From: Salibacteraceae bacterium
GTDB taxonomy: Bacteria > Bacteroidota > Bacteroidia > Flavobacteriales_G > Salibacteraceae
Direction: 5' to 3'
DNA length: 64,000 nt
Assembly (NCBI GenBank): GCA_048267965.1
Contig: JBLWWK010000015.1
Location: 4,661 to 68,660, forward strand
A program made the position numbers and the translations under genes. Of this stretch, positions 1 to 64,000 are shown one piece after another (positions within the stretch are counted from its first letter, which is position 1; every line of letters begins with the position of its first letter). The notes beneath the pieces are model-generated. The model ran no database searches, was not told the origin of the DNA, and saw nothing but the letters and a program-made list of their open reading frames with translations.

Positions 1-552
1 GCGCAAGATGCAGGCATCAATACAGATGGCATTGGCGATAAACTTAAAGTGAAGGTGAAAATTGAAGGCGATATCGCAGATCCTTCTGTAAAACCTGTTT
101 TCGAAGGAACACAAGCCAACTCTGCTAAAGATGCTGTGAAAGATGCCGTAAAAGACAAAGTAGACGAGGCCAAAAAAGAGGCCAAAAAGAAAGCCAAAGA
201 AGAAGCGGATAAACTTTTGGAAGATGCTCAAAAACAAGCCGATAATCTTGTGGCAGAAGCTAAAAAACAGGCCGATAATATTCGTAAAGAAGGTAAAAAA
301 GCCGGAGATCAATTACGAGCAGAAGCTAAAAAGCAAGCCCAATCGTTGGTAGACGAAGCTTCGAATCCTATTGCGAAGAAGTTAGCAGAAACGGCTGCTA
401 AAAAAGTGGAAGAAGAAGCAGATAAAAAAGCCACTCAACTTGAGCAAGAAGCCAACAAAAGAGCCGATGGCGTTGAAACAAAAGCGCAAGAACAAGCCGA
501 TAAAATAATGGAACAAGCAAGACAAAAAGCAGACGAAAAACTAGCCGAATAG
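1..552 (+). CDS. C-terminal fragment of a larger protein (gene starts upstream of the window); AsmA/TamB-like end followed by a Lys/Ala/Glu-rich coiled-coil tail
   Basis: Frame 1 is open from nt 1 (AQDAGINTDGIGDKLKVKVK...) into the listed ORF 49..552. KIEGDIADPSVKP is followed by about 140 aa of AEAKKQA-type repeats. Confidence 0.55.
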   Translation, partial: AQDAGINTDGIGDKLKVKVKIEGDIADPSVKPVFEGTQANSAKDAVKDAVKDKVDEAKKEAKKKAKEEADKLLEDAQKQADNLVAEAKKQADNIRKEGKKAGDQLRAEAKKQAQSLVDEASNPIAKKLAETAAKKVEEEADKKATQLEQEANKRADGVETKAQEQADKIMEQARQKADEKLAE

Positions 553-555
553 TCA

Positions 556-2631
556 ATGAATACATCAACATTTCCATCACAAACATTAAAGAGCAGTTGG
601 TTTCTAACCCTGCTCTTTTTTACTTTATCGTTTTCGATTCTAGCACAAAATAAATGTGAAGGAACCGATAACAAGAAAGCAGAAAAACTCTACAAAAAAG
701 GAATTGACAAAAAGAACAGTAAATCTGAACGGATTGCTTACTTAAAACAAGCCTTACAAGAAGACGAAAACTACATAGATGCCAATTGGAAACTGGCCGA
801 TGTACTCACCAAAACTGCACGATTAAAAGGCGAAAGTTTCATCAAAGCCACCCCTTTCTTAGAAAAAATCGTTGAAAACTGTCCAGATTACCATTCGTCT
901 CCGTATTACTTTTTAGGCCAAATTGCCTTAGATAAAGGTGATTACGAAGAGTCGGTTACTTATTTTAAGCAGTTTATTGATTTCCAATCAGACGATAATT
1001 CAAAATTCGATAGAAGGTACGATGAGTACCTAGAATTGGCTAAGCAAAACTACAAATGGGCGAAATTTTACCACGAACAATATGCAAGTCCTGTTGCGTT
1101 TAAACCCACATTGGTAGCACAAGTTTCTACCCAAAAAGATGAGTATTTACCCCTGGTAACCCCCGATAACGAAAACATGTACTTTACCCGCAGAACGCAG
1201 AAGAAGGCGCAAAACAAAGGCTCTTATTTCGGTTCAACCACTACAGATTTTATCGAATCGTTTTCGGTAGCGCCAAGAAAAGGTCATCAATTCGAGGTAG
1301 GAACCGCTCTACCTGCTCCGTTTAATACCATGAAAGATGTAAACTACGGAGGCGCAACGGTTTCTATCGATAACAAAGAACTGTATTTAACCGTTTGTAC
1401 ACCTGTTGCGGGTTCTATCAATTGCGATTTGTATGGCACCCAGCGTGTTTTCGGTTTTAACCCAGCCACCAATAAAGAAGAGTGGCATTGGACCGAGTTA
1501 AAAAACTTGGGGCCTAATGTAAATACAGACGATGGTTGGGAAGCTCAACCGAGTTTGTCGAAAGATGGTAAAACATTGATTTTTGCCAGTGCTCGTGAAG
1601 GCTCTGAAGGTATCGACATTTACCAAACTACTCGTTTACCCAACGGAAATTGGGCTCCAGCCGAAAGAATTCCTGAGCCCATTAGCACTCCAGAAAACGA
1701 TAAAACGCCTTTTTTTCACAGTGATAGTAAAACCTTGTATTACGCTTCAGAAGGGCATTTGAACCATGGAGGTTACGATGTTTTCTATGCTAAAATGGGA
1801 GAAGATGGAAAATGGCAAGAACCCATTAACTTAGGGTATCCGATCAACTCTAGCGGAGATGAACACGGCTTTGTGGTAAGTACAGATGGCCAACACGTGT
1901 ATTTTACCAGCAATAAAATTGACGGTAAAAATAAAACCGCTTTAAATATCTATTCTTTTCCGCTTTACAAAGAAGCTCGTCCTGAGCAAGTAATAATGGT
2001 TAAAGGAAGTGTAAAAGACGAAAACGGCAAGGCACCTTCGGGAGCAGTAGTTGAAGTGAAAAATCCAGAAACCAACGAAAAAGAAACCTTTAAAGTTGAT
2101 TCGATATCTGGAGATTACACGGCAATTGTTACGGTTCCTACCAAAAATGCCGAAAAAGTAGCCAGTAAATTGGTGGTGAACATTAAATCACCCGATAAGG
2201 CATTCGAAAGTTTTTCGGTAAGTACAGATACAGTAGGGCAGGGCTTCAAAATCAATAAAGAAATAGAAGTAAAAACCATAAAGGTAGGATCCCCTTACCG
2301 CATTAACGATATTTACTACTCTACCAATAGCGCTGATATTACGGTAGATTCAAAACTGATTTTAGATGAATTTGCCGAATGGCTAATTGACAACCCTACG
2401 GTAACTATTGCCATTCACGGCCATACCGATAATGTGGGAGATGCAAGTAGCAATATGGTTTTGAGTACCGATAGAGCGTTTTCGGTAAAACAATACATCG
2501 AGAAAAAAGGTGTGAATGGTAAAAGATTGAAATTCAAAGGTTACGGGGAAGAAAAACCCGTGGCAAGCAATGCTACGCAATCGGGAAGAAACCTAAATAG
2601 AAGAACAGAATTTATAATCTTATCTAAATAA
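556..2631 (+). CDS. OmpA-family protein (signal peptide, TPR-like region, TolB-like beta-propeller repeats, CarboxypepD_reg-like sandwich, C-terminal OmpA peptidoglycan-binding domain)
   Basis: 691-aa ORF. The C-terminus HGHTDNVGDASSNMVLSTDRAFSV...NRRTEFIIL is the OmpA_C signature. Repeated S.DGK.LYF.S blades are present. Confidence 0.85.
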   Translation: MNTSTFPSQTLKSSWFLTLLFFTLSFSILAQNKCEGTDNKKAEKLYKKGIDKKNSKSERIAYLKQALQEDENYIDANWKLADVLTKTARLKGESFIKATPFLEKIVENCPDYHSSPYYFLGQIALDKGDYEESVTYFKQFIDFQSDDNSKFDRRYDEYLELAKQNYKWAKFYHEQYASPVAFKPTLVAQVSTQKDEYLPLVTPDNENMYFTRRTQKKAQNKGSYFGSTTTDFIESFSVAPRKGHQFEVGTALPAPFNTMKDVNYGGATVSIDNKELYLTVCTPVAGSINCDLYGTQRVFGFNPATNKEEWHWTELKNLGPNVNTDDGWEAQPSLSKDGKTLIFASAREGSEGIDIYQTTRLPNGNWAPAERIPEPISTPENDKTPFFHSDSKTLYYASEGHLNHGGYDVFYAKMGEDGKWQEPINLGYPINSSGDEHGFVVSTDGQHVYFTSNKIDGKNKTALNIYSFPLYKEARPEQVIMVKGSVKDENGKAPSGAVVEVKNPETNEKETFKVDSISGDYTAIVTVPTKNAEKVASKLVVNIKSPDKAFESFSVSTDTVGQGFKINKEIEVKTIKVGSPYRINDIYYSTNSADITVDSKLILDEFAEWLIDNPTVTIAIHGHTDNVGDASSNMVLSTDRAFSVKQYIEKKGVNGKRLKFKGYGEEKPVASNATQSGRNLNRRTEFIILSK

Positions 2632-2811
2632 AAAACGGGTTAGCTACTTGCATCGCACCGCTACAACCGTATACCCTTGCTATCTTCCGATCCTGGGGGA
2701 TTCTACAGGAGCTGGTCGTACAAGACTAACCCGGGCGGCAAAAGTATAAAACTCTACATTCTTTGCAAGCAAAGTTTACAAGGTTTCTGTTACATTTGCG
2801 ACTTTCTGCCC

Positions 2812-3351: not shown

Positions 3352-4309
3352 GAATATTTCAATTGTTGTTCCTCTTTTAAACGAAGAAGAATCTTTGAAA
3401 CCACTCTTTAAGTGGATCAAAGAAGTAATGGAAAAACACGGCTTTTCTTATGAAGTGTTGTTTGTAGACGATGGTAGCACCGACCATTCGTGGAGAATTA
3501 TTACTGAGCTTTCTGCCGAACATTCTGAGGTGAAAGGCATTAAATTTCGAAGAAATTACGGTAAATCTGCCGCTTTAAATACAGGGTTTAAAGCTACCGA
3601 AGGCGAAGTGGTTATTACCATGGATGCAGATTTACAAGATAGCCCTGAAGAAATTCCAGAATTGTTCAAAATGATCAAAAAAGACCATTTTGATTTGGTT
3701 TCTGGTTGGAAAAAGAAAAGATACGATCCCGTTTCAAAAACGGTTCCTACTAAACTCTTTAATTGGGCTACTCGAAAGGCGAGTGGAATTTATCTGCACG
3801 ATTTCAATTGTGGTTTAAAAGCATACCGATCAGAAGTAGTTCACAGCATAAATGTTTACGGTGAAATGCACCGTTATATTCCTGTAATTGCCAAGCAATC
3901 AGGGTTTAATAAAATTGGTGAGAAGGTGGTAGAGCATCGCGCCCGAGAACATGGTAAATCAAAATTTGGCGGCATAGAACGTTTTATTCGCGGTTTTCTC
4001 GATTTACTTTCTATCACATTTGTATCAAAATATGGGCAACGCCCCATGCACTTTTTTGGTCCGCTAGGTACGTTAATGTTCATCGCAGGCTTTGCCATTG
4101 TAGCCTACCTCGGAATCGAAAAGTGGTACTATCTGCAAATTCACGAAAGCAAAAGATTGGTAGCTGAAAACCCACTCTTTTATATTGCGTTAACCACCAT
4201 GATTTTGGGTACTCAACTGTTTTTAGCGGGCTTTTTGGCCGAGCTGATTTCACTCAATTCACCCGAAAGAAATAATTATCAAATCGCTCAAACTTCTAAC
4301 CTCGATTAA
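3344..4309 (+). CDS. GT2 glycosyltransferase, polyprenyl-phosphate sugar transferase type (DPM1/GtrB-like) with C-terminal TM helices
   Basis: Motifs VVPLLNEEE, FVDDGSTD and TMDADLQD (DxD) are present, plus two C-terminal hydrophobic helices. Confidence 0.85.
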   Translation: MSKNISIVVPLLNEEESLKPLFKWIKEVMEKHGFSYEVLFVDDGSTDHSWRIITELSAEHSEVKGIKFRRNYGKSAALNTGFKATEGEVVITMDADLQDSPEEIPELFKMIKKDHFDLVSGWKKKRYDPVSKTVPTKLFNWATRKASGIYLHDFNCGLKAYRSEVVHSINVYGEMHRYIPVIAKQSGFNKIGEKVVEHRAREHGKSKFGGIERFIRGFLDLLSITFVSKYGQRPMHFFGPLGTLMFIAGFAIVAYLGIEKWYYLQIHESKRLVAENPLFYIALTTMILGTQLFLAGFLAELISLNSPERNNYQIAQTSNLD

Positions 4310-5274
4310 TGCGGTATTCTGCGATTATTCCGGTGTATAACCGACCAGACGAAATCAAAGAATTGCTAGAGTCGTTAACCCGACAAACAGTAAAAGATTT
4401 TGAGGTAATTGTGGTAGAAGATGGTTCTTCACAAGATGCAGCCCAAGAAGTTAAGGCGTTTTTCGATGTGCTAGATGTAAAATACTTTGTAAAGCCCAAC
4501 GAAGGTCAAGGTTTTGCTCGCAATTTTGGTTTCGAAAAAGCACAGGGAGATTGGTTAATTGTTTTCGATTCAGACGCTATTATTCCTCCCAATTACTTCG
4601 AAGAAGTGAATGCTTTTTTAGCTAAAAACCCAGAAGTAAAAGCCTTTGGTGGTCCTGATGCATCGCATCCATCATTTACTCCTATGCAGAAAGCCATCAG
4701 TTATTCTATGACATCGTTATTTACTACGGGTGGTATTAGAGGAGGTGAAAATAGAGTAGGGGAGTTTCATCCGCGAAGCTTTAACATGGGAATTGCTCGC
4801 GAGGTTTATCAAAAAATTGGCGGCTATAAAATCACTCGAATGGGTGAAGATATTGAGTTTTCGATCAGAATTATTGAAAACGGATTTAAAACAGCACTTA
4901 TTCCTAAAGCCTTTATTTATCACAAGCGCAGAACCAATTTATCGCAGTTTTACAAGCAGCTGCACTTTTTTGGCCGAGCTCGAATTAACATTGCTCGTTT
5001 TTATCCTAGCGAAATAAAATTAGTACACCTGTTTCCTGCTTTTTTTGTAGCCGCTTGGTTCGTCTATTTACTCAGCTGGGCGGTATTTAGGCCATTAGCA
5101 ACGGTAGGAACCGTAATACTCTTTTTCTATTATTTTGCCATATTTCTAGATAGCACCGTTCGAAATAAATCGATAAAAATTGGCGTTCTCAGTATGGCAA
5201 CATCGTTTGTTCAGCTCTTTGCTTATGGCGTGGGCTTTTATACTGAATGGCTCAACAAAACGTTAAAATCGTAA
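4309..5274 (+). CDS. GT2 family glycosyltransferase with C-terminal membrane region
   Basis: Motifs IIPVYNRPDE, VVEDGSSQD and VFDSDA are present. The start overlaps the upstream stop (TAATG). Confidence 0.8.
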   Translation: MRYSAIIPVYNRPDEIKELLESLTRQTVKDFEVIVVEDGSSQDAAQEVKAFFDVLDVKYFVKPNEGQGFARNFGFEKAQGDWLIVFDSDAIIPPNYFEEVNAFLAKNPEVKAFGGPDASHPSFTPMQKAISYSMTSLFTTGGIRGGENRVGEFHPRSFNMGIAREVYQKIGGYKITRMGEDIEFSIRIIENGFKTALIPKAFIYHKRRTNLSQFYKQLHFFGRARINIARFYPSEIKLVHLFPAFFVAAWFVYLLSWAVFRPLATVGTVILFFYYFAIFLDSTVRNKSIKIGVLSMATSFVQLFAYGVGFYTEWLNKTLKS

Positions 5275-5304: not shown

Positions 5305-6006
5305 ATGATGAAACTTATTCCATTTACTCTGCTTTTATTGCTTTTTAGCTTTTCTACAATTGCTCAAGATACCTTGAATAAAACCGATGAAAATGGTTTA
5401 AAACAAGGTTATTGGATCAAGAAAAACGAGCGCGGAGTAAAAGTTTACGAAGGCCGATTTTTAAACGATGTTCCCGTAGATACTTTCTTGTATTACGATA
5501 TTAACGGTGATAAAAATGCACGTCTTGTTTGGTTAGATGCTGTAACAAGTATGGCGACTATTTATTATCCAGACGGAACCAAAGCGGGCGAAGGAAAATA
5601 CGTAAACAAGCAAAAAGAAGGCTTGTGGAAGTTATACGATGGAAACGAAATTTTGAGTGCCGAGCAGTATTGGAAAAATGGAAAGAAACACGGTTCCTAC
5701 AAAGTGTATTACGATGATGGCTCTGTTTCTGTTGAATCGCACTTCGAAAACGGTCTAGAGCACGGTTTACGAAAAGAGTTTTGGTTAGATGGAAAGCGCA
5801 AATTTGAAGGCAATTTTGTAGACGGCAACCCAGATGGCGAAGTAAAATACTACAACGAAGAAGGTCAACTTACCGAAAAAGGAACGTATAAGAATGCCGT
5901 TCGTCACGGTAAATGGATGCATTACGGGCAGCATGGCATAGATAAAATCACCATATTTGAGTATGGTAAACAGAAAGAAGTCAAAACAATTAGCAGCGAA
6001 GATTAG
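5305..6006 (+). CDS. MORN-repeat variant protein (YwqK-like), secreted
   Basis: Signal peptide, then repeated G.W..Y...G / NGK.HG.YK.YY.DG units. Confidence 0.6.
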   Translation: MMKLIPFTLLLLLFSFSTIAQDTLNKTDENGLKQGYWIKKNERGVKVYEGRFLNDVPVDTFLYYDINGDKNARLVWLDAVTSMATIYYPDGTKAGEGKYVNKQKEGLWKLYDGNEILSAEQYWKNGKKHGSYKVYYDDGSVSVESHFENGLEHGLRKEFWLDGKRKFEGNFVDGNPDGEVKYYNEEGQLTEKGTYKNAVRHGKWMHYGQHGIDKITIFEYGKQKEVKTISSED

Positions 6007-7645
6007 CCTTTTCGTTGGCTTGCTTAGCAGTTCTTCACTCTACAGCCAAATCGCTCCATCTAAATATTTTGTTCCTTTTAGTAACAAGAGTAACACGCAA
6101 TATTCTACTGAAAAACCCCTAGAATTTCTGAGCAAATCAGCTGTGCTAAGGCGCTTGCAGCAAGGCATCGCTATTACTGCGCAAGATTTTCCGGTTAATA
6201 AAGAATACATTCAAGAAGTAAAAGCACAAGGCCATGTAAAGGTGCTGTATTCGTTAAAATGGTTCAATGGAGTGGTAATTGAAACCGAAGACTCTATCGC
6301 CATCGATAAAATTGAGCAATTGCCTTTTGTAAAAGGCTCTATTCGTCAAGAATTCAACAACTTCATCACCAATCGTAAAAAGCATCAGAAATGGGATATT
6401 CAGCTCGAAATTAGTGAAGAAAGTGAATTTGCAGACACTCTTTATGGGGCGGCTTGGCCTCAAACACAAATGCTCAATTTAATTTCGTTGCATCAAGAAG
6501 GCAATCTCGGCCAAGAGATGAGAATTGGCATTTTCGATTCGGGTTTTGCAGGGGCAGATACCTTAGAAGTTTTTCAACCTTCTTTTGCTAACGGAAGAGT
6601 AGAAGCTACTTTCGATTTAGTAGATGGCGGTGAAATTTTATTCGATAAACACTCTCACGGCACCCATGTTTGGAGCACAATGGCCGGCAACTCAGCCTAT
6701 CGTTTTGTAGGAACCGCTCCTGAAGCTATATACTCACTCTTCAGAACCGAAGATGTTAACTCAGAATACATTATTGAAGAGTTTAACTGGGTGGCTGCCG
6801 CAGAACTGGCCGACAGCATGGGAATAGACATCATCAATACCTCTCTAGGGTACACCGAATTTGACGATCCCAACATGAATCATGTTTATTCAGACCTCGA
6901 TGGCAATCGAACCCCAGCCGCTATCGGTGCAGATATTGCCGCCTCAAAAGGTATGCTGTTAGTGGTAAGTGCAGGTAATAACGGTGACGATTCGTGGGTG
7001 TATATCTCAACCCCTGCAGATGCAGATTCTGTTTTAACGGTAGGAGCCGTAAACAGCCAAGGTGTTTATGCTCCCTTTAGCAGTCTAGGATACGCTGCCG
7101 ATGGAGATGTTAAACCCAATGTAATGGCATTAGGCCAAGGAGCCGCAGTGTGGACGTATGGAAACCAGGCTGCCTTAACTAACGGAACTTCCTTTTCAGG
7201 GCCGATAATGGCAGGAGCCGTTGCCTGCTTATGGCAAAATAACCGCGATAAAACCAATATGGAAATTATTGCAGCCGTAGAACAAAGCGCATCGTTTTAC
7301 AGCGAACCCAACCAACGCTACGGGTATGGAATTCCTGATTTTTCATTAGCACAAGAAATTCTATCTGAAAAGAGAGCAAAAACTTCTGTAAATCAATGGT
7401 CTATCTATCCCAACCCGGGAGCAGCCAGCCCTTTGCAAATTCGCTATACCGGAAAGAGCAACGAAACCGCAAAAATTACCATTCATTCTACTTCGGGCAC
7501 TTTAATGTACAATCGTTCAATAGAAACGAGTTTTAGAGAATTTACTTTACCCACTTCGGTAGAGTGGCCAGCGGGTTCCTACTTGATTGAATTAGATTTT
7601 CGAGGCGAAAAGCAACAGTTTACTTGGATAAAATTGGATAAATAA
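5963..7645 (+). CDS. S8 (subtilisin-family) serine peptidase with T9SS type-A C-terminal sorting domain
   Basis: Catalytic triad contexts are IGIFDSGF (D), HGTHVWST (H) and NGTSFSGP (S). The C-terminus reads SIYPNPGAASPLQIRY...AGSYLIEL. The first ATG is at 5963 and overlaps the MORN gene by 44 nt. Confidence 0.85.
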   Translation: MVNRKKSKQLAAKISLFVGLLSSSSLYSQIAPSKYFVPFSNKSNTQYSTEKPLEFLSKSAVLRRLQQGIAITAQDFPVNKEYIQEVKAQGHVKVLYSLKWFNGVVIETEDSIAIDKIEQLPFVKGSIRQEFNNFITNRKKHQKWDIQLEISEESEFADTLYGAAWPQTQMLNLISLHQEGNLGQEMRIGIFDSGFAGADTLEVFQPSFANGRVEATFDLVDGGEILFDKHSHGTHVWSTMAGNSAYRFVGTAPEAIYSLFRTEDVNSEYIIEEFNWVAAAELADSMGIDIINTSLGYTEFDDPNMNHVYSDLDGNRTPAAIGADIAASKGMLLVVSAGNNGDDSWVYISTPADADSVLTVGAVNSQGVYAPFSSLGYAADGDVKPNVMALGQGAAVWTYGNQAALTNGTSFSGPIMAGAVACLWQNNRDKTNMEIIAAVEQSASFYSEPNQRYGYGIPDFSLAQEILSEKRAKTSVNQWSIYPNPGAASPLQIRYTGKSNETAKITIHSTSGTLMYNRSIETSFREFTLPTSVEWPAGSYLIELDFRGEKQQFTWIKLDK

Positions 7646-8160: not shown

Positions 8161-8172
8161 TCGGTAGGAACC
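8161..8172 (+). repeat. intergenic copy of the 12-mer TCGGTAGGAACC
   Basis: Exact 12-mer directly after the bidirectional terminator, between convergent genes. Confidence 0.9.
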
Positions 8173-8621: not shown

Positions 8622-9893
8622 TTAATCAAACGATTTTCCTTTGCGAATTATTTCACCATTCACCACAACCGAATCAATGGTGTCTGTACCAAAAGCATAC
8701 GGCATAAAATCGATGTTTTTCATAGGCGTGCTAATAATAAAACTCGCTTTTTTACCAATGGCAATGGTTCCTACAGAATCTCCCATTTCCATAGCGGCAG
8801 CACCGTTAATGGTTACAGCATTAAGCGCCTGAAAAGGAGTCATTCTTTGTTTAATACAGCCCATGCTAAAAACCAATTTCATATTTCCGTTAGGAGTAGA
8901 ACCCGGGTTGTAATCAGAGGCTAGTGCCACTGGAATATTAGCTTCCATTAAACGATTAACAGGCGTGTACGGTAAACTTAAAAAGAAAGAGCAAGAAGGT
9001 AAGCCTGTGGCAATGGTGGTAGATTTTTTTAGAGCGGTTATGTCTTCTTCTCCTAATTCTTCTAAATGGTCTACAGAAACCGCATTAAAACGAGTGGCCA
9101 ATTCAATACCGCCTTGAATGCTAAACTGATTTACGTGTAATTTAGGTTTTAAGCCATGTTCGGTTCCTGCCGTTAAAATTCTCTCTGCTTGCTCTACGGT
9201 GAAGTAATTGCGCTCAATAAATATGTCGATGTATTCGGCTAGTTCTTCTTTCGCCACCACCGGAATCATCTCTTCAATGATAAGCTCTACGTAAGCATCG
9301 CGGTTTTCTTTGTATTCTGTCGGAAAAGCGTGAGCGCCCAAAAATGTAGCCTTTATGGGAATGTTTCGGGCTGCTTTTAAGCGCTTGATTACTCGCAGCA
9401 TTTTTAGCTCGGCATCTACGGTAAGCCCGTAACCACTTTTAATTTCAATAGCGCCAGTACCTTGATGCATTACTTCGTCTAAGCGTTTTAGAGCGCTTTC
9501 GAATAATTGATCTTCAGTTGCTTGATTCAGCTTTTTAGCTGAGTTGAGAATTCCTCCGCCTTTAAGAGCAATTTCTTCGTAAGTAAGGCCTTTAATGCGG
9601 TCTACAAATTCACCTTCTCGGCTTTCAGCAAAAACCAAATGGGTATGTGAATCACAAAAAGTTGGAATTACAATACCTCCGTTGGCATCAGCAATGGTTA
9701 AATCGTTCCAGTCAGAAATACCTTGTAAATCGGTCATGCTTCCAAAGTCTACAATCACATCGTTTTCGATGGCGAGGTAGGCATTTTCGATAAAAGGCAC
9801 TTGATCCATTTCTAAACCGTTCACTCGTGTTCTGGGAGTGGAAGTATCGGTTTGATATAACTTCTGAATATTCTTGACAAGAATTTTACTCAT
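8622..9893 (-). CDS. hutI: imidazolonepropionase
   Basis: Amidohydrolase fold with FCDSHTHLVF metal motif, KLHVNQFS and ALASDYNPGS, at about 420 aa. The ATG is at 9893; the ORF-track start 9914 is TTG. Confidence 0.85.
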   Translation of the reverse strand: MSKILVKNIQKLYQTDTSTPRTRVNGLEMDQVPFIENAYLAIENDVIVDFGSMTDLQGISDWNDLTIADANGGIVIPTFCDSHTHLVFAESREGEFVDRIKGLTYEEIALKGGGILNSAKKLNQATEDQLFESALKRLDEVMHQGTGAIEIKSGYGLTVDAELKMLRVIKRLKAARNIPIKATFLGAHAFPTEYKENRDAYVELIIEEMIPVVAKEELAEYIDIFIERNYFTVEQAERILTAGTEHGLKPKLHVNQFSIQGGIELATRFNAVSVDHLEELGEEDITALKKSTTIATGLPSCSFFLSLPYTPVNRLMEANIPVALASDYNPGSTPNGNMKLVFSMGCIKQRMTPFQALNAVTINGAAAMEMGDSVGTIAIGKKASFIISTPMKNIDFMPYAFGTDTIDSVVVNGEIIRKGKSFD

Positions 9894-13895: not shown

Positions 13896-13962
13896 TCGGT
13901 AGGAACGCGATTTTGACGGCTTCCGAACAGCACAACAATTGATGAAATCGGGTTCCTACCGA
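13896..13962. repeat. inverted pair of the TCGGTAGGAAC motif forming a long hairpin
   Basis: TCGGTAGGAAC (13896-13906) and CGATTT (13908-13913) pair with AAATCG (13945-13950) and GTTCCTACCGA (13952-13962), giving an 11 + 6 bp stem with a G/G mismatch and a loop of about 29 nt. It lies just downstream of the FAH-family gene. Confidence 0.85.
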
Positions 13963-13969
13963 GAAGAAA

Positions 13970-14590: not shown

Positions 14591-15355
14591 TTAAGAGTTC
14601 ATTTTCTTTTTGATTCGGGTAAGAATTTGCTTGGTATCGGCTGGGAAATCACCTTTCATCATCCAACTGTAATAACCGGGTTCTTGCGCTAGAACATCTT
14701 CTACCAGCTTGCCCTTGTGTTTACCAAAGTTGAATACAATCTTTTTATCAGAGTTGTAGGCAAATCTCCCCATTAAATCTACGTGATTCGATCTTCTAGA
14801 GAATTGATCAAGAAATTCTACATTGTTTTGAAGTTCTTCGTAACGTTCTAATTGAGCCATTAAAACCTCGAAAGTGGCTGTGTTATCGGCTTCTGCGCTG
14901 TGGGCACCTTCTAATTCTTTGTTGCAATAAAACTGATAAGCGGCCGCTAATGTGCGCTGTTCCATTTTGTGGAAAATATTCTGCACATCTACTAAACTTC
15001 TATCGCTAATATCGAAATCGAAACCAGCGCGTTTAAATTCTTCAATGAGTACAGGTACATCGAATTTATTCGAATTATAACCAGCTAAATCGCAATCGTT
15101 CAAGAAGATATAGAGAATAGGAGCGAGGTCTTTAAAGGTAGGCTCGTCTTTTATGTCTTCGTTGGTAATACCATGAACGGCAGATACTGCAGACGGAATA
15201 GGCATTTCAGGATTAACACGTTGTGTTTTGGTTTCCTTTTTTCCGTTAGGATGAATTTTCAGGATAGAATACTCTACAATTCTATCGGTTCCTACATTTA
15301 CACCCGTAGTTTCTAAATCAAAAAATGCGATTGGCTTTTTCAGGTTCAATTTCAT
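14591..15355 (-). CDS. DEDD 3'-5' exonuclease (DnaQ/epsilon-like)
   Basis: Exo motifs FFDLETTG, NSNKFDVPVL and HSAEADN. The ATG at 15355 (MKLNLKKPIAFFDLETTG) avoids the terminator at 15404-15438. Confidence 0.85.
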   Translation of the reverse strand: MKLNLKKPIAFFDLETTGVNVGTDRIVEYSILKIHPNGKKETKTQRVNPEMPIPSAVSAVHGITNEDIKDEPTFKDLAPILYIFLNDCDLAGYNSNKFDVPVLIEEFKRAGFDFDISDRSLVDVQNIFHKMEQRTLAAAYQFYCNKELEGAHSAEADNTATFEVLMAQLERYEELQNNVEFLDQFSRRSNHVDLMGRFAYNSDKKIVFNFGKHKGKLVEDVLAQEPGYYSWMMKGDFPADTKQILTRIKKKMNS

Positions 15356-19754: not shown

Positions 19755-20372
19755 TTATTGAGATAGAGTAGACGAGTATGGAGTACGGTTCAAAATAGAG
19801 CGACCTAATGTAATTTCATCGGTGTATTCTAGTACATCGCCAACGGCAACACCTCTGGCAATGGTAGAAATATCTACCCCTAAAGGAGATAGTTTTTTAT
19901 ATAAAAAGAAGTTAGTAGTATCCCCTTCCATAGTGGTGCTTAAGGCCAGAATTACTTCTTTAATGCCTGATTCTTTAGTACGTTGTAATAGACTATCGAT
20001 GGTAAGGTCGTTAGGTCCAACTCCATCCATAGGCGAAATATGTCCGCCTAAAACGTGATAAAGTCCGTTAAATTGCCCGGTGTTTTCGAGGGCAATAATG
20101 TCTCGTAAATCTTCTACCACGCAGAGAGTAGATTGGTCTCTTTTGGGGTTCCTACAGATACCACAAATAGAAGCATCGCTAACATTATGGCATTTCTCGC
20201 AAAACTGGATCTCAGAGCGCATGGTAGTAAAAGCGTTGGCAAACTGCTGCACTTCTTCTTCAGATTGATTAAGCAGGTGAAGGGTAAGGCGCAGAGCGGT
20301 TTTTCTGCCAATGCCGGGCAACGAAGCAAATTGCTCTACAGCCTGAGACAATAGTTTAGAAGGTAAATCCAT
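19755..20372 (-). CDS. recR: recombination protein RecR
   Basis: Helix-hairpin-helix [12 protein letters not shown], zinc finger [16 protein letters not shown], and a Toprim domain. Confidence 0.95.
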
Positions 20373-52605: not shown

Positions 52606-52619
52606 TCGGTAGGAACCGA
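52606..52619 (+). repeat. intergenic copy, extended quasi-palindromic 14-mer TCGGTAGGAACCGA
   Basis: Exact. Its reverse complement TCGGTTCCTACCGA recurs inside the E1 gene at 41880-41893. Confidence 0.9.
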
Positions 52620-55426: not shown

Positions 55427-55852
55427 TTATTGAGGTTTATCTACTATAGCCATTGTTAACCTGCACACGCAAACGAGTTTTTCCGACTCGTTTTTTATTT
55501 CAATGCTCCAAACATGTGAGCGTTTTCCGATGTGAACAGGTGTACAAGTTCCATACACAAATCCATTAACGCCAGGCCGAATGTGGTTGGCGTTAATGCT
55601 TTGTCCTACTGCTATTAATGCCGTATTGTCTATTATTAAGTTAGAAGCTACACTTCCTAAAGATTCTGCTAAAACTACAGAAGCACCTCCGTGCAAAATA
55701 CCAGCTGGCTGTATTGTACTTTGGTTAACGGGCATTTTGGCTTGTAGCAAGTCGGTTCCTACCGTGGTAAATTCTATGCTTAGCGAATCGTGAATCGTGT
55801 TTTTGCACAGCGAATTGAGCTCTTCAACGGTATAATCTCTTTTCCAAATCAT
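55427..55852 (-). CDS. PaaI/YbdB-type hotdog-fold thioesterase
   Basis: 141 aa. GILHGGASVVLAESLGS is the PaaI-family signature. Confidence 0.8.
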   Translation of the reverse strand: MIWKRDYTVEELNSLCKNTIHDSLSIEFTTVGTDLLQAKMPVNQSTIQPAGILHGGASVVLAESLGSVASNLIIDNTALIAVGQSINANHIRPGVNGFVYGTCTPVHIGKRSHVWSIEIKNESEKLVCVCRLTMAIVDKPQ

Positions 55853-56357: not shown

Positions 56358-57155
56358 TTAAATACGTAAAATTCCGCTGGCCCAAAGGGTAAAATTACCT
56401 TCTAAACGAACAACATTGTTCTCTATTGAGCAATTAAATTCACCTCCACGAGCGCTTAATTGGCGAGCTGTTAATGTGTTTTTATGTAATCGGTTGGCCC
56501 AAAAGTGCGTAAGAGCCGCATGAGAAGAACCCGTTGCAAAATCTTCTAGTTGGCCCACGTGCGGCACAAACGTTCGGCTTACAAAATCGTGTTGAATTCC
56601 TTGAGCAGTCACCGCATACCCAAAAAATTTGGAGTCTCTTAAACGAGAAAAATTCGGTTGAATTGATTTTACGGTAGTTTCATCTTTCACCACCACAATG
56701 TGCTTGTTGTCGGTTTCGTGCATTTCTAAAATCTCTACCCCCAAACCTTCTTCTATTTCGGTAGGAACCACAATCGATTGCTTTACAGGCAGTGCATCTA
56801 ATTCGATAAAACAACGTTGGTCGGTAACCGAACCACCGTTTACTACAGCCGAACTTGCCGATAACTGAGAAGTAGAGTGAAAGTTAGAGTGATTTCTACA
56901 CGCTGCAAAAGCGGCTAAACTTCCGTGTCCGCATAAACCAATTTCTGCATCGGGAGCCATCCAGCGAACGTTCACCTGGTTATTTTCTTTCCATAAAAAA
57001 GTGGTGGCGGGTTGGTTAAAGTCAGCAGCAATTTTTTGCAACCTTTCGGTTTCTAAAGCGTGAGGTAAGAAAACCACAGCAGAAGGATTACCCAAAATTC
57101 CCAGCTCTGGGGCATCAAATACCGATATTATCTCAAAAGGAACTTTCATCATCAT
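56358..57155 (-). CDS. PhzF-family isomerase-like protein
   Basis: 265 aa. GNPSAVVF...FNQPATTFL...ICGHGSLAA is the PhzF-family layout. Confidence 0.75.
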   Translation of the reverse strand: MMMKVPFEIISVFDAPELGILGNPSAVVFLPHALETERLQKIAADFNQPATTFLWKENNQVNVRWMAPDAEIGLCGHGSLAAFAACRNHSNFHSTSQLSASSAVVNGGSVTDQRCFIELDALPVKQSIVVPTEIEEGLGVEILEMHETDNKHIVVVKDETTVKSIQPNFSRLRDSKFFGYAVTAQGIQHDFVSRTFVPHVGQLEDFATGSSHAALTHFWANRLHKNTLTARQLSARGGEFNCSIENNVVRLEGNFTLWASGILRI

Positions 57156-58388: not shown

Positions 58389-59615
58389 TTATTCAATTTT
58401 AATTAATCGTTGAGTGGCATTTTCAGTTTTTACCAAATAGGTTCCTACCGGTAAATTTAAACGAAGCGAAGTATGGGTTGCGTGTTCTCCCAAAAATTCG
58501 CCACCAATAGAGAAAAGCTGAAAAGTAGAAGAGGCAGATTTTACTTCGAACTGATTTTTTGTTGGATTAGGAAAAACAGTAAGTGATTTTTCCGTATTTC
58601 TTAAATCTTGAACAGCAAGTACACGAACTTCAACTGTATCTTTATGTGTGCTAGAGCGGTTACAATAGGTGGCAGTTAATTCAATAATAAAATCACCAGA
58701 AGTTGTGTAGTTATAAGTTGGTTCAAAAGCAGTAGAAGTGAAACCATCGCCAAAAGACCAAGAATAGGTAAAAGCATGTTTTGAGTGGTTTTCTACGGTT
58801 ACCATCGAAGTATTTTGTTGAAACTCAAAATCAGCCAACGGAATGGCAAAGTTGCTCTCTATTGAATCTACATTGTTGAGTACGTGATTGGCTACCGTTT
58901 GTAAATATTCGGCTTGATTGGCGTTGATAGCATTCGGGCGAAAGGTGTTGCCTACAGAGCTTTCTGCAAAAAGACTCTCGTAAAAAACACAGGCGGCTAA
59001 ATAGCTTCCGAAACTAGATGGGTGGCTGCCATCTGGAGAATACAATTGATGAAAGGTAACTACTGCCGCAGGATCTTGTTTAATGTGCTTAAAAGCCATA
59101 CCGATGGGAGCAAGTAGAGTCGAATTTTGCTCTGCCATGTACGCGTATGCTCTAAAAAGACGATCGTTCATTTTTTCGAACGTGTTGATAGAATCCCACT
59201 GAGGGTCTCCATTTTGTCTTCCCCAAGTATTAAAGAATACAGGAATAGCGCAAGCATTGGCACTTCTAATTGAGTCTACTAACGTTTCAGCAAACGGAAA
59301 AACTTCGGTTTGAACTTGTGCCCAAGGAAAAGAGGGAACTTGACTTTGATCTTGCAAAACCACAAAATCCCACGATTGAGCCTTTATTTTTTGAAGTGAA
59401 GTTGCATTGGTAGAGTGGCTTTGTAAGGTGTAACCGCCCGGCACATTTGCATCGAAAGTAAGGGTGTTTCCATCGGCCATGGCAAGACTCTGAATCATGC
59501 TGGGCATGTTGTTAGAGTAAGTGTAACTGTTCCCGAGAAAAAGTACATTTTTAGTTGTTTGACCGTAACAAAGTGCCGTTAAGAAGCAGAAAAGCGCAAC
59601 AAGATTGATCTTCAT
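58389..59615 (-). CDS. secreted SGNH/DUF4886-like hydrolase + PKD domain + T9SS type-A C-terminal sorting domain
   Basis: The ATG at 59615 gives the signal peptide MKINLVALFCFLTALCYGQ. VLFLGNSYTYSNNMP is SGNH block I-like, YSWSFGDG marks the PKD domain, and the C-terminus is LTVFPNPTKNQF...VGTYLV. Confidence 0.75.
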   Translation of the reverse strand: MKINLVALFCFLTALCYGQTTKNVLFLGNSYTYSNNMPSMIQSLAMADGNTLTFDANVPGGYTLQSHSTNATSLQKIKAQSWDFVVLQDQSQVPSFPWAQVQTEVFPFAETLVDSIRSANACAIPVFFNTWGRQNGDPQWDSINTFEKMNDRLFRAYAYMAEQNSTLLAPIGMAFKHIKQDPAAVVTFHQLYSPDGSHPSSFGSYLAACVFYESLFAESSVGNTFRPNAINANQAEYLQTVANHVLNNVDSIESNFAIPLADFEFQQNTSMVTVENHSKHAFTYSWSFGDGFTSTAFEPTYNYTTSGDFIIELTATYCNRSSTHKDTVEVRVLAVQDLRNTEKSLTVFPNPTKNQFEVKSASSTFQLFSIGGEFLGEHATHTSLRLNLPVGTYLVKTENATQRLIKIE

Positions 59616-59690: not shown

Positions 59691-59737
59691 TGGTGTTTTC
59701 TGTAGGAACACAATTCGCGTTCCTACAGAAAACACCA
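59691..59737. repeat. perfect 19-bp inverted repeat built around a variant motif (CTGTAGGAAC / GTTCCTACAG), 9-nt loop
   Basis: TGGTGTTTTCTGTAGGAAC (59691-59709), loop ACAATTCGC, then GTTCCTACAGAAAACACCA (59719-59737). It lies between the VOC-family gene and the SGNH/T9SS gene. Confidence 0.9.
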
Positions 59738-59829: not shown

Positions 59830-60018
59830 TTAACCGTTTAACCGATTAAAATCAATGTTTTTTCCTCTTTCGGTAGGAGCCGTAGAATTTTCATCTGTGC
59901 TCGAAGAAAGATGGCAACTAAGGTGAAGACCCACCGCTAAAGCGTAAATCAACAATAAAGTGGCCGAACGTTTAAGCGTGCTACTTTTGGTAGGCGCCTG
60001 AAGAGTACGTAAGTTCAT
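59830..60018 (-). CDS. tentative small lipoprotein (62 aa)
   Basis: An internal ATG of ORF 59830..60051 gives MNLRTLQAPTKSSTLKRSATLLLIYALAVGLHLSC (n-region, h-region, lipobox-like LSC). It overlaps the 3' end of the VOC gene by 38 nt in another frame. No other support. Confidence 0.25.
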   Translation of the reverse strand: MNLRTLQAPTKSSTLKRSATLLLIYALAVGLHLSCHLSSSTDENSTAPTERGKNIDFNRLNG

Positions 60019-62732: not shown

Positions 62733-63812
62733 TTAAGCCACTTGCTCAAGTTCGGGTACATGAACAATGGGTAGTTTAATGGTAAAGGTAGCTCCTAATC
62801 CTGCGCCATCGCTGTGTGCGGTGATTTCTCCCTTAGCCCTAGAAACCAGTTTCTGACAAAGGTGTAAACCAATGCCATGAGAATCTTCTTTAGCGTTAAA
62901 ATTGCGGTCTAACGTGGCGTTGTATTTAAAGATTTTGTCTTTGTCTTTGGGCGAAAATCCATCTCCTTTATCCGTAATAGACAAGCGAATAAACTGATTA
63001 CAAACGGTAGACTGAATGGCAATTGTTTTGTGGTTTGGACTGTATTTTATAGCGTTGCTAAGTACGTTAATGGCACTTCTGTAAAGCGGTAATTCAGCTA
63101 CTTCGATATGAGAAGAAGTGTCTCCCGAAATACTTAAATCTAGGTTTTTCTCACGCAGTGATAGGCGAAATTTATCGTTAATTTTCTGAAAAAAGTCATC
63201 TAGACGAATAACGGAAACCTCTATTTCGTTCTGCAAATTATTCTTCTTCTTTTTGATAGAGTTGATTAAGTATTCCATCTCTGCTATTTGAGAACGGATC
63301 GATTGTTCCATTAAATCAAGAGAGCTTTTTATATTTTCAGGACTCTGATCAATTTTTAAAACTTCGATTAAACCCAGCACATTTTTAGCAGGTCGTTGCA
63401 AGTCATGAGAAAGTAATTGAACACTGCTTAAACGTTGTTCTTCAAACTCTTCTAGCTTTAAAATGGTAGATTGTACATCGCTCATTAATTGCCCAACTTC
63501 GTCTGTGTGTTGGCTCGGTAAGGTGGGTATTTTAGAGTGATTTATGTAATTTTTTAACGCCTGATTGGTAATTAATATAGGTTGTAACAACCCGTTTAAA
63601 GCATACAGAGTGAGGCTGGTAGCCACTAATGTAAGAACTAGAGTGAGCCCGCCCATCCATAACGGATTTTGCTGAGCTTGAGGAGAACTAAGTAGAAATA
63701 AGATGATGCCAACGAGTGGAATATGGGTTCCAACAAAGGCAATAAAGAAAGTTTTTAGGGTAAAACTCCTCTTTAAAAAAGGGATTTTACTCAAGAATGA
63801 GTAAGATTTCAT
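62733..63812 (-). CDS. membrane sensor histidine kinase (2 TM, HAMP-like linker, HisKA, HATPase_c)
   Basis: H-box LLSHDLQRPA, N-box NVLSNAIKYS, then DKGDGF and SHGIGLHL. No cognate regulator lies within the window. Confidence 0.85.
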   Translation of the reverse strand: MKSYSFLSKIPFLKRSFTLKTFFIAFVGTHIPLVGIILFLLSSPQAQQNPLWMGGLTLVLTLVATSLTLYALNGLLQPILITNQALKNYINHSKIPTLPSQHTDEVGQLMSDVQSTILKLEEFEEQRLSSVQLLSHDLQRPAKNVLGLIEVLKIDQSPENIKSSLDLMEQSIRSQIAEMEYLINSIKKKKNNLQNEIEVSVIRLDDFFQKINDKFRLSLREKNLDLSISGDTSSHIEVAELPLYRSAINVLSNAIKYSPNHKTIAIQSTVCNQFIRLSITDKGDGFSPKDKDKIFKYNATLDRNFNAKEDSHGIGLHLCQKLVSRAKGEITAHSDGAGLGATFTIKLPIVHVPELEQVA

Positions 63813-63934
63813 ACGTCAAAAAATTTGGGTTTCGGTACCGCTAACATACGGAATATACTGTGATGGTGTTTTTAAATTCGAGTTAAATGAGACAACGCTG
63901 TGTTAAATTCAGGTAGTTAAATGCCCTTGTTTTT

Positions 63935-63946
63935 TCGGTAGGAACC
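63935..63946 (+). repeat. intergenic copy of the 12-mer TCGGTAGGAACC
   Basis: Exact 12-mer upstream of the histidine kinase gene, with a T-rich 5' flank. Confidence 0.9.
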
Positions 63947-64000
63947 ACTTATGATTCTCTATTAGGAAATCTTCAAATTTTGTGGTTGTTTGTTATATTT

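What the first reader, a model, noticed from the sequence alone, without database searches (positions are those of the whole stretch)
1..64000. Hyper-abundant oligonucleotide TCGGTAGGAACC (core GTAGGAACC): a DNA-uptake-sequence-like signature
By eye the exact 9-mer occurs at least 32 times. Fifteen are GTAGGAACC, starting at 1297, 5104, 6707, 8164, 18881, 21016, 22340, 25224, 26362, 34020, 39817, 48697, 52609, 56761 and 63938. Seventeen are GGTTCCTAC, starting at 2133, 3742, 5692, 7574, 8766, 13951, 15287, 20147, 23207, 25454, 33108, 38869, 41882, 43854, 53665, 55754 and 58440. There are also many one-mismatch copies (e.g. 7038, 13899, 24954, 35247, 35538, 46330, 57670, 59702, 59719, 59869). 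A rough base-composition estimate, assuming about 40% GC (not computed exactly), predicts well under one copy of such a 9-mer on both strands of 64 kb. About 20 copies extend to the 10-mer GGTAGGAACC. Seven are the exact 12-mer TCGGTAGGAACC (8161, 25221, 52606, 56758, 63935, and as reverse complement 13951-13962 and 41882-41893). Intergenic copies are the best conserved. They share a T-rich 5' flank and often a GATTT-like 3' flank, and they sit in convergent, divergent and tandem spacers alike, which argues against a promoter or operator role. Orientation is balanced (15 versus 17), and density is roughly one per 2 kb. High density, both orientations, presence in both CDS and spacers, inverted pairs near gene ends: this is the established pattern of the Neisseria DUS and Pasteurellaceae USS. 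I am not aware of an uptake signal described for Bacteroidota.
Basis: partly seen in the sequence, partly recalled or inferred. Interest (0 to 1): 0.8.

Follow-up and report, generated by a model that had tools for sequence, protein, structure and literature searches.

The report
Candidate DNA-uptake word in a flavobacterium
A 9-12 base word (TCG)GTAGGAACC is scattered about once every 2 kb through the genes of an uncultured Flavobacteriales genus, with the statistical and evolutionary marks of the DNA-uptake signals known so far only from Neisseria and Haemophilus relatives, so it may be the first such signal outside Proteobacteria, though uptake itself is untested.

Summary
GTAGGAACC occurs 32 times (15+/17-) at the stated coordinates, against 0.15-0.7 expected, and it is the top over-represented word at every k from 6 to 12. 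It is not a repeat element, because the flanks are unrelated. It is not a coding artefact: 14 of 19 Val-Gly-Thr tripeptides use exactly GTA-GGA-ACC, against 0.9 expected. It shows no strand bias, so it is not Chi- or KOPS-like.

All five intergenic copies carry the full 12-mer TCGGTAGGAACC with a T-rich 5' flank; only 2 of 27 coding copies do.

The word is clade-specific. It has the same density in a conspecific strain and in two metagenomic relatives (MutL 95% and 80% identical). It is absent from the syntenic locus of sister lineages (MutL 62-73%) and nearly absent from 2.4 Mb of other, mostly Bacteroidota, DNA (7 copies). Copies are conserved above background, and each lineage also has private gains.

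Best reading (about 0.5): a transformation uptake signal that accumulated by molecular drive, independent of DUS and USS. Competence, receptor and uptake bias could not be tested. The main rival is a HIP1-like word kept by another DNA-level process.

The parts
1297..1305 (+). core 9-mer, in CDS 556-2631 (PD40/OmpA), sense, reads Val-Gly-Thr
2133..2141 (-). core 9-mer, in CDS 556-2631, antisense (gene reads x-Val-Pro-Thr)
3742..3750 (-). core 9-mer, in CDS 3344-4309 (glycosyltransferase 2), antisense (Val-Pro-Thr)
5104..5112 (+). core 9-mer, in CDS 4309-5274 (glycosyltransferase 2), sense Val-Gly-Thr
5692..5700 (-). core 9-mer, in CDS 5305-6006 (MORN repeats), antisense (Gly-Ser-Tyr)
6707..6715 (+). 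core 9-mer, in CDS 5957-7645 (S8 peptidase), sense Val-Gly-Thr
7574..7582 (-). core 9-mer, in CDS 5957-7645, antisense (Gly-Ser-Tyr)
8161..8172 (+). full 12-mer TCGGTAGGAACC, intergenic, in the spacer between convergent genes; lies next to (not inside) a strong terminator hairpin at about 8108-8150
8766..8774 (-). core 9-mer, in CDS 8622-9914 (amidohydrolase), sense Val-Gly-Thr
13896..13907 (+). one-mismatch 12-mer TCGGTAGGAACG, the inverted partner of 13951-13962; together they form a long hairpin (-27 kcal/mol) just 3' of gene 13970-14581(-)
13951..13962 (-). full 12-mer, intergenic (tandem spacer), second arm of the inverted pair
15287..15295 (-). core 9-mer, in CDS 14591-15403 (RNase T/ExoX-like exonuclease), sense Val-Gly-Thr
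18881..18889 (+). core 9-mer, in CDS 17791-19752 (glycosyltransferase), antisense (Val-Pro-Thr)
20147..20155 (-). core 9-mer, in CDS 19755-20372 (RecR), sense, rare frame (Cys-Arg-Asn-Pro)
21016..21024 (+). core 9-mer, in CDS 20413-21900 (sodium:solute symporter), sense Val-Gly-Thr; the motif-free sister lineage L086 has GTTGGAGTT here
22340..22348 (+). core 9-mer, in CDS 22013-22783, sense Val-Gly-Thr; conserved in L081 and L083
23207..23215 (-). core 9-mer, in CDS 22914-24875, antisense; L081 has the variant GAAGGAACC here
25221..25232 (+). full 12-mer, intergenic (convergent spacer), 36 nt beyond the stop of gene 25268-26698(-)
25454..25462 (-). core 9-mer, in CDS 25268-26698 (NfeD), sense Val-Gly-Thr; conserved in L081, L082 and L083
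26362..26370 (+). core 9-mer, in CDS 25268-26698, antisense, rare frame; L082/L083 have GGAGGAAGC here
33108..33116 (-). core 9-mer, in mutL (31647-33539), sense Val-Gly-Thr; L082 has GTAGGTACT and L086 has ACAGGAACC
34020..34028 (+). core 9-mer, in CDS 34005-36836 (GH3/beta-lactamase), sense Val-Gly-Thr
38869..38877 (-). core 9-mer, in CDS 38710-39054 (SUI1), sense Val-Gly-Thr; conserved in L081 and L082; L086 has ATTGGTGAT
39817..39825 (+). core 9-mer, in CDS 39724-40206, antisense (Gly-Ser-Tyr)
41882..41893 (-). full 12-mer inside CDS 40326-42305 (2-oxoacid dehydrogenase E1), antisense
43854..43862 (-). core 9-mer, in CDS 43665-44762 (ThiF family), antisense (Gly-Ser-Tyr)
48697..48705 (+). 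core 9-mer, in CDS 47647-48750 (response regulator-histidine kinase), sense Val-Gly-Thr
52606..52617 (+). full 12-mer, intergenic (divergent spacer upstream of the acetyl-CoA synthetase gene)
53665..53673 (-). core 9-mer, in the acetyl-CoA synthetase gene (52718-54613), antisense (Val-Pro-Thr)
55754..55762 (-). core 9-mer, in CDS 55427-55852 (thioesterase), sense Val-Gly-Thr
56758..56769 (+). full 12-mer inside CDS 56358-57155 (PhzF family), antisense
58440..58448 (-). core 9-mer, in CDS 58389-59738 (DUF4886/PKD), sense Val-Gly-Thr
59691..59737 (.). near-perfect hairpin whose arms carry one-mismatch copies of the word (TGTAGGAAC / GTTCCTACA); -32 to -36 kcal/mol; probably intergenic, because the mechanical GTG start at 59738 is likely too far upstream
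59870..59881 (+). variant 12-mer TCGGTAGGAGCC with a T-rich 5' flank, intergenic
63935..63946 (+). full 12-mer, intergenic (beyond the start of gene 62733-63812(-))

Best explanation
The word (T)CG-GTAGGAACC is most likely a species-group-specific DNA uptake signal in an uncultured genus of Flavobacteriales (Bacteroidota).

Inferred mechanism: the cells are naturally transformable, and a surface DNA receptor (unknown; not ComP or the Pasteurellaceae system by descent) binds double-stranded DNA carrying the 12-mer preferentially. Conspecific fragments with the word are therefore taken up and recombined more often than alleles without it. Mutations that create the word then spread by this transmission bias (molecular drive) until selection on proteins stops them.

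Shown here: the genomic footprint such a process leaves. This includes hyper-abundance on both strands without replication or transcription bias, an excess of one-off variants, and distortion of codon and tripeptide usage. It also includes full-length copies only outside coding constraint, conservation above background, lineage-specific gains, and restriction to one narrow clade.

Inferred, not shown: competence, the receptor, and the uptake bias itself.
For: - **Abundance.** 32 copies against 0.15-0.7 expected. It is the top word at every k from 6 to 12. The 12-mer is about 500 fold over an order-3 expectation. Density is 0.50/kb, of the same order as DUS and USS from my own recollection (about 0.8-0.9/kb).
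- **No polarity.** 15+/17- in a window whose GC skew keeps one sign. 15 sense against 12 antisense in genes.
- **Not a repeat element.** Outside positions -3 to +1, information content at flank positions is at most about 0.27 bits. The repeat finder recovers only the word itself plus a T-rich 5' tract.
- **DNA-level force.** 14 of 19 Val-Gly-Thr tripeptides are encoded by GTAGGAACC, against 0.94 expected from codon usage (p = 5e-15). VGT and VPT tripeptides are 3.5 fold over-represented. The frame that contains TAG is never used.
- **Constraint pattern.** 5 of 5 intergenic copies are the full 12-mer, against 2 of 27 coding copies. Intergenic copies have a T-rich 5' flank, like the core-plus-flank build of USS.
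- **One-off variants.** 59 against about 13 expected, concentrated at positions 2 and 7 and never at positions 6 or 8.
- **Clade specificity.** A conspecific strain has 12 copies in 18.4 kb, two of them outside the window, and 5 in 13.6 kb. The MutL-95% relative has 8 in 21.9 kb. The MutL-80% relatives have 5-6 in 16-19 kb. Syntenic loci of lineages at MutL 62-73% have 0. Pooled controls have 7 copies in 2.42 Mb.
- **Evolution.** 8 of 10 aligned sites are identical in the relative with 87% nucleotide identity, against 35% of all 9-mers (p = 0.005). Each lineage has private copies where the other has a near-word, and the motif-free outgroup has non-words at all these sites.
- **Plausibility.** Riemerella anatipestifer and R. 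columbina (same order) are naturally competent and prefer their own DNA, by an undefined mechanism (PMC7965970).
Against: - No competence, pilus or DNA-receptor gene lies in the 64 kb. The rest of the genome could not be fetched.
- The organism is uncultured, so there is no evidence that it is transformable.
- Only two inverted pairs are present. Most intergenic copies sit beside terminators, not in them, whereas about half of DUS/USS lie in predicted terminators (bioRxiv 10.1101/2025.10.24.684340).
- No related 'dialect' was seen in sister lineages.
- The footprint would look the same for any process that favours transmission or retention of the word. HIP1 of cyanobacteria shows that a hyper-abundant, conserved word need not be a proven uptake signal.
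- Only about 70 kb of this species and about 20 kb of each relative were sampled.
Confidence: 0.5

Rival explanations
1. HIP1-like word. The sequence is kept at high density by a chromosomal process unrelated to DNA uptake. Examples are a genome-wide DNA-binding protein (nucleoid organisation or a self-marking function), or a modification-and-repair system that converts near-words into the word.
For: Sites are conserved above background. The word occurs in genes and spacers alike, in both orientations. HIP1 (GCGATCGC) in cyanobacteria is, from my own recollection, a case of kb-scale density with conservation and no proven uptake role. The core has a small internal dyad (GGT-AGGA-ACC), compatible with protein binding (read directly from the sequence).
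Against: The word is not palindromic and is specific over 9-12 contiguous bases. From my own knowledge, that is longer than the recognition sites of known methyltransferases or very-short-patch repair systems. Known repair biases give changes of a few fold, not 50-500 fold. A housekeeping chromosomal function would not be expected to be missing from syntenic sister lineages with the same gene order and GC content.
Confidence: 0.25
2. A signal for another sequence-biased route of DNA exchange. Examples are packaging into a gene-transfer-agent-like particle or vesicles, or dispersed nick/entry sites for chromosomal mobilisation by a conjugative element. Such a route would cause the same molecular drive.
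For: Any transmission bias predicts the same footprint. Conjugative elements are common in Bacteroidota (general knowledge).
Against: No transfer, packaging or relaxase genes are in the window or in the related loci. No precedent exists for a transfer origin at 0.5/kb.
Confidence: 0.1
3. A polar chromosomal signal of the Chi (RecBCD/AddAB) or KOPS (FtsK) type.
For: These are also short, over-represented, non-palindromic words found inside genes (general knowledge).
Against: Such signals are co-oriented with replication. Here the split is 15+/17- across a window with a single GC-skew sign. From my own knowledge, their enrichment is a few fold and their length 5-8 bases, against 50-500 fold and 9-12 bases here.
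Confidence: 0.03
4. Remnants of a miniature mobile element or a REP-type repeat.
For: Intergenic copies share a pyrimidine-rich 5' tract of about 10 bases. Two inverted pairs exist.
Against: 27 of 32 copies lie in frame inside conserved housekeeping genes, with no insertion relative to orthologues. Flanks carry no information. No copy is longer than about 22 bases.
Confidence: 0.02
5. A by-product of protein sequence or codon usage (a common peptide motif).
For: 14 copies read Val-Gly-Thr in frame.
Against: The word is used in five of six frames and in spacers. Codon usage predicts 0.94 of the 14 observed. Orthologous residues differ in the motif-free sister lineage. Controls of the same GC content lack the word.
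Confidence: 0.01

Closest known systems
DNA uptake sequence (DUS) of Neisseriaceae, 10-12-mer (AT)GCCGTCTGAA and its dialects, bound by the minor pilin ComP
   Same: A non-palindromic 9-12-base word at kb-scale density on both strands, inside genes and spacers. It has a strong core with a weaker 5' extension and an excess of one-off variants. It is clade-restricted. Occasional inverted pairs form hairpins at gene ends. Reading-frame bias occurs in genes.
   Different: The sequence is unrelated and the phylum is different (Bacteroidota). No ComP homologue or any pilin lies in the sequence available. Inverted pairs are rare (2), and most copies (84%) are in genes. No dialects were seen in sister lineages. 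Uptake function is untested.
Uptake signal sequence (USS) of Pasteurellaceae, 9-base core AAGTGCGGT or ACAAGCGGT with AT-rich flanks
   Same: A 9-base core plus flanking low-information T-rich tract that is seen best in unconstrained (intergenic) copies. Most copies are in coding sequence, in a few tolerated frames. There is measurable distortion of tripeptide usage, as Findlay and Redfield reported for USS (cited in bioRxiv 10.1101/2025.10.24.684340).
   Different: The sequence and taxon are unrelated, and the receptor is unknown. Density is somewhat lower than my recollection for USS (0.5 against about 0.8 per kb). No experimental uptake data exist.
HIP1, the highly iterated palindrome GCGATCGC of cyanobacteria
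   Same: A hyper-abundant short word in genes and spacers, conserved above background, with no settled function.
   Different: HIP1 is a perfect palindrome of 8 bases linked to cognate methyltransferases. The present word is asymmetric, 9-12 bases long, and confined to one genus-level clade.
Self-DNA preference in natural transformation of Riemerella anatipestifer and R. columbina (Flavobacteriales), PMC7965970
   Same: Same bacterial order. It is experimental evidence that Flavobacteriales can be naturally competent and can discriminate in favour of their own DNA.
   Different: No sequence signal has been defined in Riemerella. Those authors suggest restriction-modification or other systems. 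Riemerella genomes could not be screened here. Riemerella belongs to a different family from the organism of this window.

Membership tests
Neisseriaceae DUS | Sequence GCCGTCTGAA or a dialect of it | tested here: not met
   The word is TCGGTAGGAACC, with no resemblance to any DUS dialect.
Neisseriaceae DUS | Genome-wide density near 1 per kb, both strands, no replication-strand bias | tested here: met
   0.50/kb over 64 kb, 15+/17-, GC skew of one sign. The same density continues 4 kb beyond the window in a conspecific contig. The whole genome was not available.
Neisseriaceae DUS | Frequent inverted pairs forming transcription terminators | tested here: inconclusive
   Two inverted pairs form strong hairpins at gene ends (13896/13951 and 59691-59737). 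Three other intergenic copies are single, and two of these lie beside, not in, a terminator hairpin.
Neisseriaceae DUS | Cognate receptor ComP (minor type IV pilin) encoded in the genome | not testable with these tools
   No pilin or pilus gene is in the window or the related loci. The remaining genome could not be retrieved.
Neisseriaceae DUS / Pasteurellaceae USS | The word increases DNA uptake and transformation | not testable with these tools
   This needs an experiment, and the organism is known only from metagenomes.
Pasteurellaceae USS | Core AAGTGCGGT or ACAAGCGGT | tested here: not met
   Different sequence.
Pasteurellaceae USS | Strong core with weak AT-rich flanks; coding copies restricted to tolerated frames; proteome distortion | tested here: met
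   Sequence logo. T-rich 5' flank in intergenic copies. Frame use is 14/7/4/1/1/0, and the TAG-containing frame is unused. The VGT codon test gives p = 5e-15, and VGT and VPT are 3.5 fold over-represented.
Uptake signals in general (molecular-drive footprint) | Restricted to one clade; sites conserved above background, with lineage-specific gains from near-words | tested here: met
HIP1-type iterated palindrome | Perfect palindrome recognised by a cognate methyltransferase | tested here: not met
   The word is not its own reverse complement (read directly from the sequence). No methyltransferase is in the window. Methylation itself is not testable.
Chi / KOPS polar sequences | Strong co-orientation with replication | tested here: not met
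   15+/17- with uniform GC-skew sign.
REP / MITE repeats | Units of tens of bases with conserved flanks, intergenic | tested here: not met
   Flanks are uninformative, the longest shared stretch is about 22 bases, and 27 of 32 copies lie in frame in genes.

The most novel reading that the evidence does not exclude
The word may not be a transformation signal at all. It could be the readout of an undescribed genome-wide system in Bacteroidota: a 12-base asymmetric 'self' tag that is written or favoured by a clade-specific protein (a recombination, repair or defence factor, or a non-transformation DNA-exchange vehicle). That system would have arisen within one genus and reshaped its proteome within a short evolutionary time.
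Probability: 0.2. Interest if true: 0.9.

Novelty: new variant of a known kind. Interest (0 to 1): 0.72.

Why it matters
Sequence-specific DNA uptake is documented only in two proteobacterial families, Neisseriaceae and Pasteurellaceae (bioRxiv 10.1101/2025.10.24.684340). Arguments about why such signals exist, molecular drive against selection for 'sex with kin', rest on those two cases.

A third, independent case would show that the phenomenon evolves repeatedly. Here it sits in another phylum, in a free-living uncultured flavobacterium, and appears to have arisen within one genus: it is present at MutL 80% identity and absent at 73%.

The young age gives a rare before-and-after comparison, because syntenic sister genomes lack the word. 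That comparison could identify the receptor by gene presence and absence, and could measure how fast a genome and its proteins are reshaped. It would also offer a candidate explanation for the unexplained self-DNA preference of competent Riemerella. If the word is not an uptake signal, then a 50-500 fold over-represented asymmetric 12-mer still needs a new explanation.

Tried and rejected
- **Repeat or mobile element: rejected.** Flanks are unrelated, and copies lie in frame in conserved genes.
- **Peptide or codon artefact: rejected** by the VGT codon test and the frame spread.
- **Chi/KOPS: rejected** on orientation.
- **RNA-level signal: rejected.** There is no sense/antisense bias, and the only Rfam hit is an SRP RNA.
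- **Assembly artefact: rejected.** The same word is found in independent assemblies from five or more samples.
- **Dialects in sister lineages: looked for, none found.** L086, L087, L088 and L090 have no dispersed hyper-abundant word. Apparent hits in L212, L228, L040 and L068 are local tandem repeats.
- **Fetching the source genome or more of it: mostly failed.** The NCBI contig (70,460 bp) is not retrievable. One conspecific Logan contig added 4 kb.
- **Genome-collection scan with MutL.** These served as negative controls.
- **Metagenome scan with acetyl-CoA synthetase.** No clade member was found (best 75% identity), so these also served as negative controls.
- **Literature.** The 9-mer appears only in primers and the like. 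No uptake sequence is reported for Bacteroidota or Flavobacteria.
- **Not attempted.** Competence-gene and receptor searches (genome not available), and structure prediction (no candidate protein).

Full report
**1. The observation**

Dinucleotide-preserving shuffles give a mean of 0.15 and never more than 1. An order-3 Markov estimate gives 0.6, and order-3 simulations give 0.7.

- The 10-mer GGTAGGAACC occurs 20 times.
- The 12-mer TCGGTAGGAACC occurs 7 times exactly and 24 times with at most one mismatch, against 0.16 expected.
- In an unbiased ranking of all words, this word and its sub-words rank first at every length from 6 to 12.
- One-mismatch copies of the 9-mer number 59 against about 13 expected. 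They are concentrated at position 2 (GAAGGAACC, 16 copies) and position 7 (GTAGGAGCC, 11 copies). None differ at positions 6 or 8.
- GC content is 0.37-0.41, and GC skew keeps one sign across the window.

**2. What the copies look like**

Outside the core, the information is three weakly conserved 5' bases (T, C/T, G) and avoidance of T at +1. Every other flank position carries at most about 0.27 bits. The repeat finder recovers nothing longer than about 22 bases. The copies are therefore not pieces of a repeated element.

With long ORFs taken as genes (about 94% of the window), 27 copies lie in genes and 5 between them. The 5 intergenic copies are about 2.6 times what the intergenic fraction would give.

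In genes the word is sense 15 times and antisense 12 times. It is used in five of the six frames:

| Orientation and reading | Copies |
|---|---|
| sense, Val-Gly-Thr | 14 |
| antisense, x-Val-Pro-Thr | 7 |
| antisense, Gly-Ser-Tyr | 4 |
| two other frames | 1 each |
| frame that would read TAG | 0 |

All five intergenic copies are the full 12-mer, against only 2 of the 27 coding copies. The intergenic copies are preceded by a T-rich tract (T 0.53 against 0.30 background). The intergenic copies lie in convergent, divergent and tandem spacers.

Two inverted pairs form strong hairpins. One is 13896/13951, at -27 kcal/mol, just beyond the end of gene 13970-14581. The other is 59691-59737, at -32 to -36 kcal/mol. 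At 8164 and 25224 the word lies beside a classical terminator hairpin, not in it.

Spacing averages 2.0 kb with a coefficient of variation of 0.84.

**3. The force acts on DNA, not on protein**

The window's genes contain 19 Val-Gly-Thr tripeptides. Fourteen are spelled GTA-GGA-ACC, whereas the window's own codon usage predicts 0.94 (binomial p = 5e-15). Val-Gly-Thr and Val-Pro-Thr are each 3.5 fold more frequent than amino-acid composition predicts. The word is bending protein sequences, as reported for USS and DUS (bioRxiv 10.1101/2025.10.24.684340).

**4. The organism and its surroundings**

The genes are ordinary chromosomal ones:

- RecR, MutL and an ExoX-like exonuclease;
- acetyl-CoA synthetase, pyrophosphatase, thioredoxin and 2-oxoacid dehydrogenase E1 and E2;
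- a TonB-dependent receptor, glycosyltransferases and histidine kinases;
- several type-IX-secretion cargo proteins.

A Bacteroidales-type small SRP RNA lies at 2633-2739.

The best named MutL relative is Salibacter halophilus, at 61% identity. The organism is therefore an uncultured member of Flavobacteriales near Salibacteraceae/Cryomorphaceae. The source is an NCBI contig of 70,460 bp that could not be retrieved. No competence or pilus gene lies in the window.

**5. Distribution among relatives**

| Lineage (locus) | Relation to the window | Copies of the word |
|---|---|---|
| Conspecific strain, L291 | 99.1% nucleotide identity, different sample | 5 in 13.6 kb |
| Conspecific strain, L292 | same sample as L291 | 12 in 18.4 kb; all 10 window copies it overlaps are kept, and 2 more lie in the 4 kb beyond the window |
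| L081 | MutL 95%, DNA 87% identical, syntenic | 8 in 21.9 kb |
| L082-L085 | MutL 80%, DNA 72% identical; four assemblies | 5-6 in the two longest loci (16-19 kb), fewer in the shorter ones |
| L086 (Tara Oceans scaffold) | MutL 73%, syntenic, 38% GC | 0; AGGAACC occurs once |
| L087, L088, L090 | MutL 64-65% | 0; no other dispersed hyper-abundant word |
| 160 control loci (2.42 Mb, mostly Bacteroidota) | distant | 7 (0.003/kb against 0.50/kb in the window) |

In a blind screen of all fetched loci except the viral contigs, only the clade members showed a dispersed 9-mer enriched more than 30 fold. The other apparent hits were local tandem repeats or weak (about 15-25 fold). The word is therefore a genus-level signature, and I saw no dialects.

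**6. Evolution of the sites**

Against L081, 8 of 10 aligned sites are identical over all nine bases, whereas only 35% of all aligned 9-mers are (p = 0.005). Per-base identity is 97.8% inside the word against 86.8% overall.

Against the 72%-identical lineage, only 3-4 sites are shared. Each lineage has private copies where the other has a near-word, for example GTAGGAACC against GTAGGTACT, or against GGAGGAAGC. At the same positions the word-free outgroup has unrelated sequence and different amino acids.

This is what gain by point mutation followed by retention looks like. The word became abundant after the split from the 73% lineage.

**7. Explanation**

The best-supported reading is a DNA uptake signal that accumulated by transmission bias. 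A receptor on competent cells would prefer DNA with the 12-mer. Alleles that gain the word would then be recombined into other cells more often. The word would spread until protein constraints stop it.

This accounts for each of the following:

- the lack of strand and transcription polarity;
- the one-off variants;
- the frame bias and proteome distortion;
- the full motif appearing only in unconstrained DNA;
- the conservation;
- the private gains;
- the narrow clade.

Natural competence with an unexplained preference for self DNA is documented in the same order, in Riemerella (PMC7965970).

Competence, the receptor and the uptake bias are inferred. None could be tested, so I put this reading at about 0.5.

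The main rival, at about 0.25, is a HIP1-like word maintained by another DNA-level process. It is weakened by the asymmetry and length of the word and by its absence from syntenic sister genomes.

The other rivals:

- Another biased transfer route: about 0.1.
- Chi/KOPS: rejected on orientation.
- A repeat element: rejected on flanks and in-frame position.
- A coding artefact: rejected by the codon test.

**8. Comparison with known systems**

The word works like, or at least looks like, DUS and USS. It is a member of neither, because the sequences are unrelated and the cognate receptors could not be looked for. It differs in having few terminator-type inverted pairs and a higher share of coding copies.

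The literature held here names uptake signals only in Neisseriaceae and Pasteurellaceae. It contains no report of one in Bacteroidota, and it does not contain this word as a motif.

**9. Verdict**

I rate it a new variant of a known kind, with high interest because of the new phylum, the apparent recent origin, and the availability of word-free sister genomes for finding the receptor.

Noticed in passing
window 2633-2739 (-): Bacteroidales-type small SRP RNA (104 bits). The mechanical ORF 2677-3351 (TTG start) overlaps it. The conspecific contig calls the DUF4199 gene 45 residues shorter, so the true start is probably further downstream.
   Followed up: partly
window 49-552 (+); L292 1663-4596: The window begins inside a 977-residue Scy-like coiled-coil protein built of 33-base (11-residue) Lys/Ala/Glu-rich repeats. 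Seven copies were detected at 193-533.
   Followed up: no
window 59691-59737: Near-perfect stem of about 19-21 bp whose arms are one-mismatch copies of the word. It lies inside the first codons of the mechanical ORF 58389-59738. That ORF's real start is probably the signal peptide further downstream, which would make the hairpin intergenic.
   Followed up: partly
window 24950-24964: TTTTCGGTAG-AACCA, a one-base-deletion version of the 12-mer, lies just after the terminator of gene 22914-24875. It may be a decaying copy.
   Followed up: no
window 13648-13969, 24876-25267, 52279-52717: Unusually long spacers (320-440 bases) for a genome that is about 94% coding. Each contains a full 12-mer, and none has an Rfam match at gathering threshold.
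   Followed up: no
window 39426-39562: Two adjacent 65-base copies (74% identical, start-to-start spacing 72) inside the Pfam-less gene 39095-39724. The protein is Cys-rich and repetitive. The neighbouring gene 39724-40206 also has no Pfam match.
   Followed up: no
L212 19800-20200; L228 about 7000-7900; L040; L068: Local tandem arrays in unrelated loci: 21-base units in L212, GCGTTAA heptamers in L228, and 7-base units in two Daejeonella loci. They mimic 'enriched words' in a k-mer screen but are not dispersed.
   Followed up: partly
L016, L045, L074, L075 (Sphingobacteriaceae-like loci): AT-rich words such as CTTCTTTTA, AAAAGAAGC and AAAAAAGCA are the most frequent 9-mers (about 10-18 copies per 22 kb). 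None of them passed the enrichment screen. They were not examined further.
   Followed up: no
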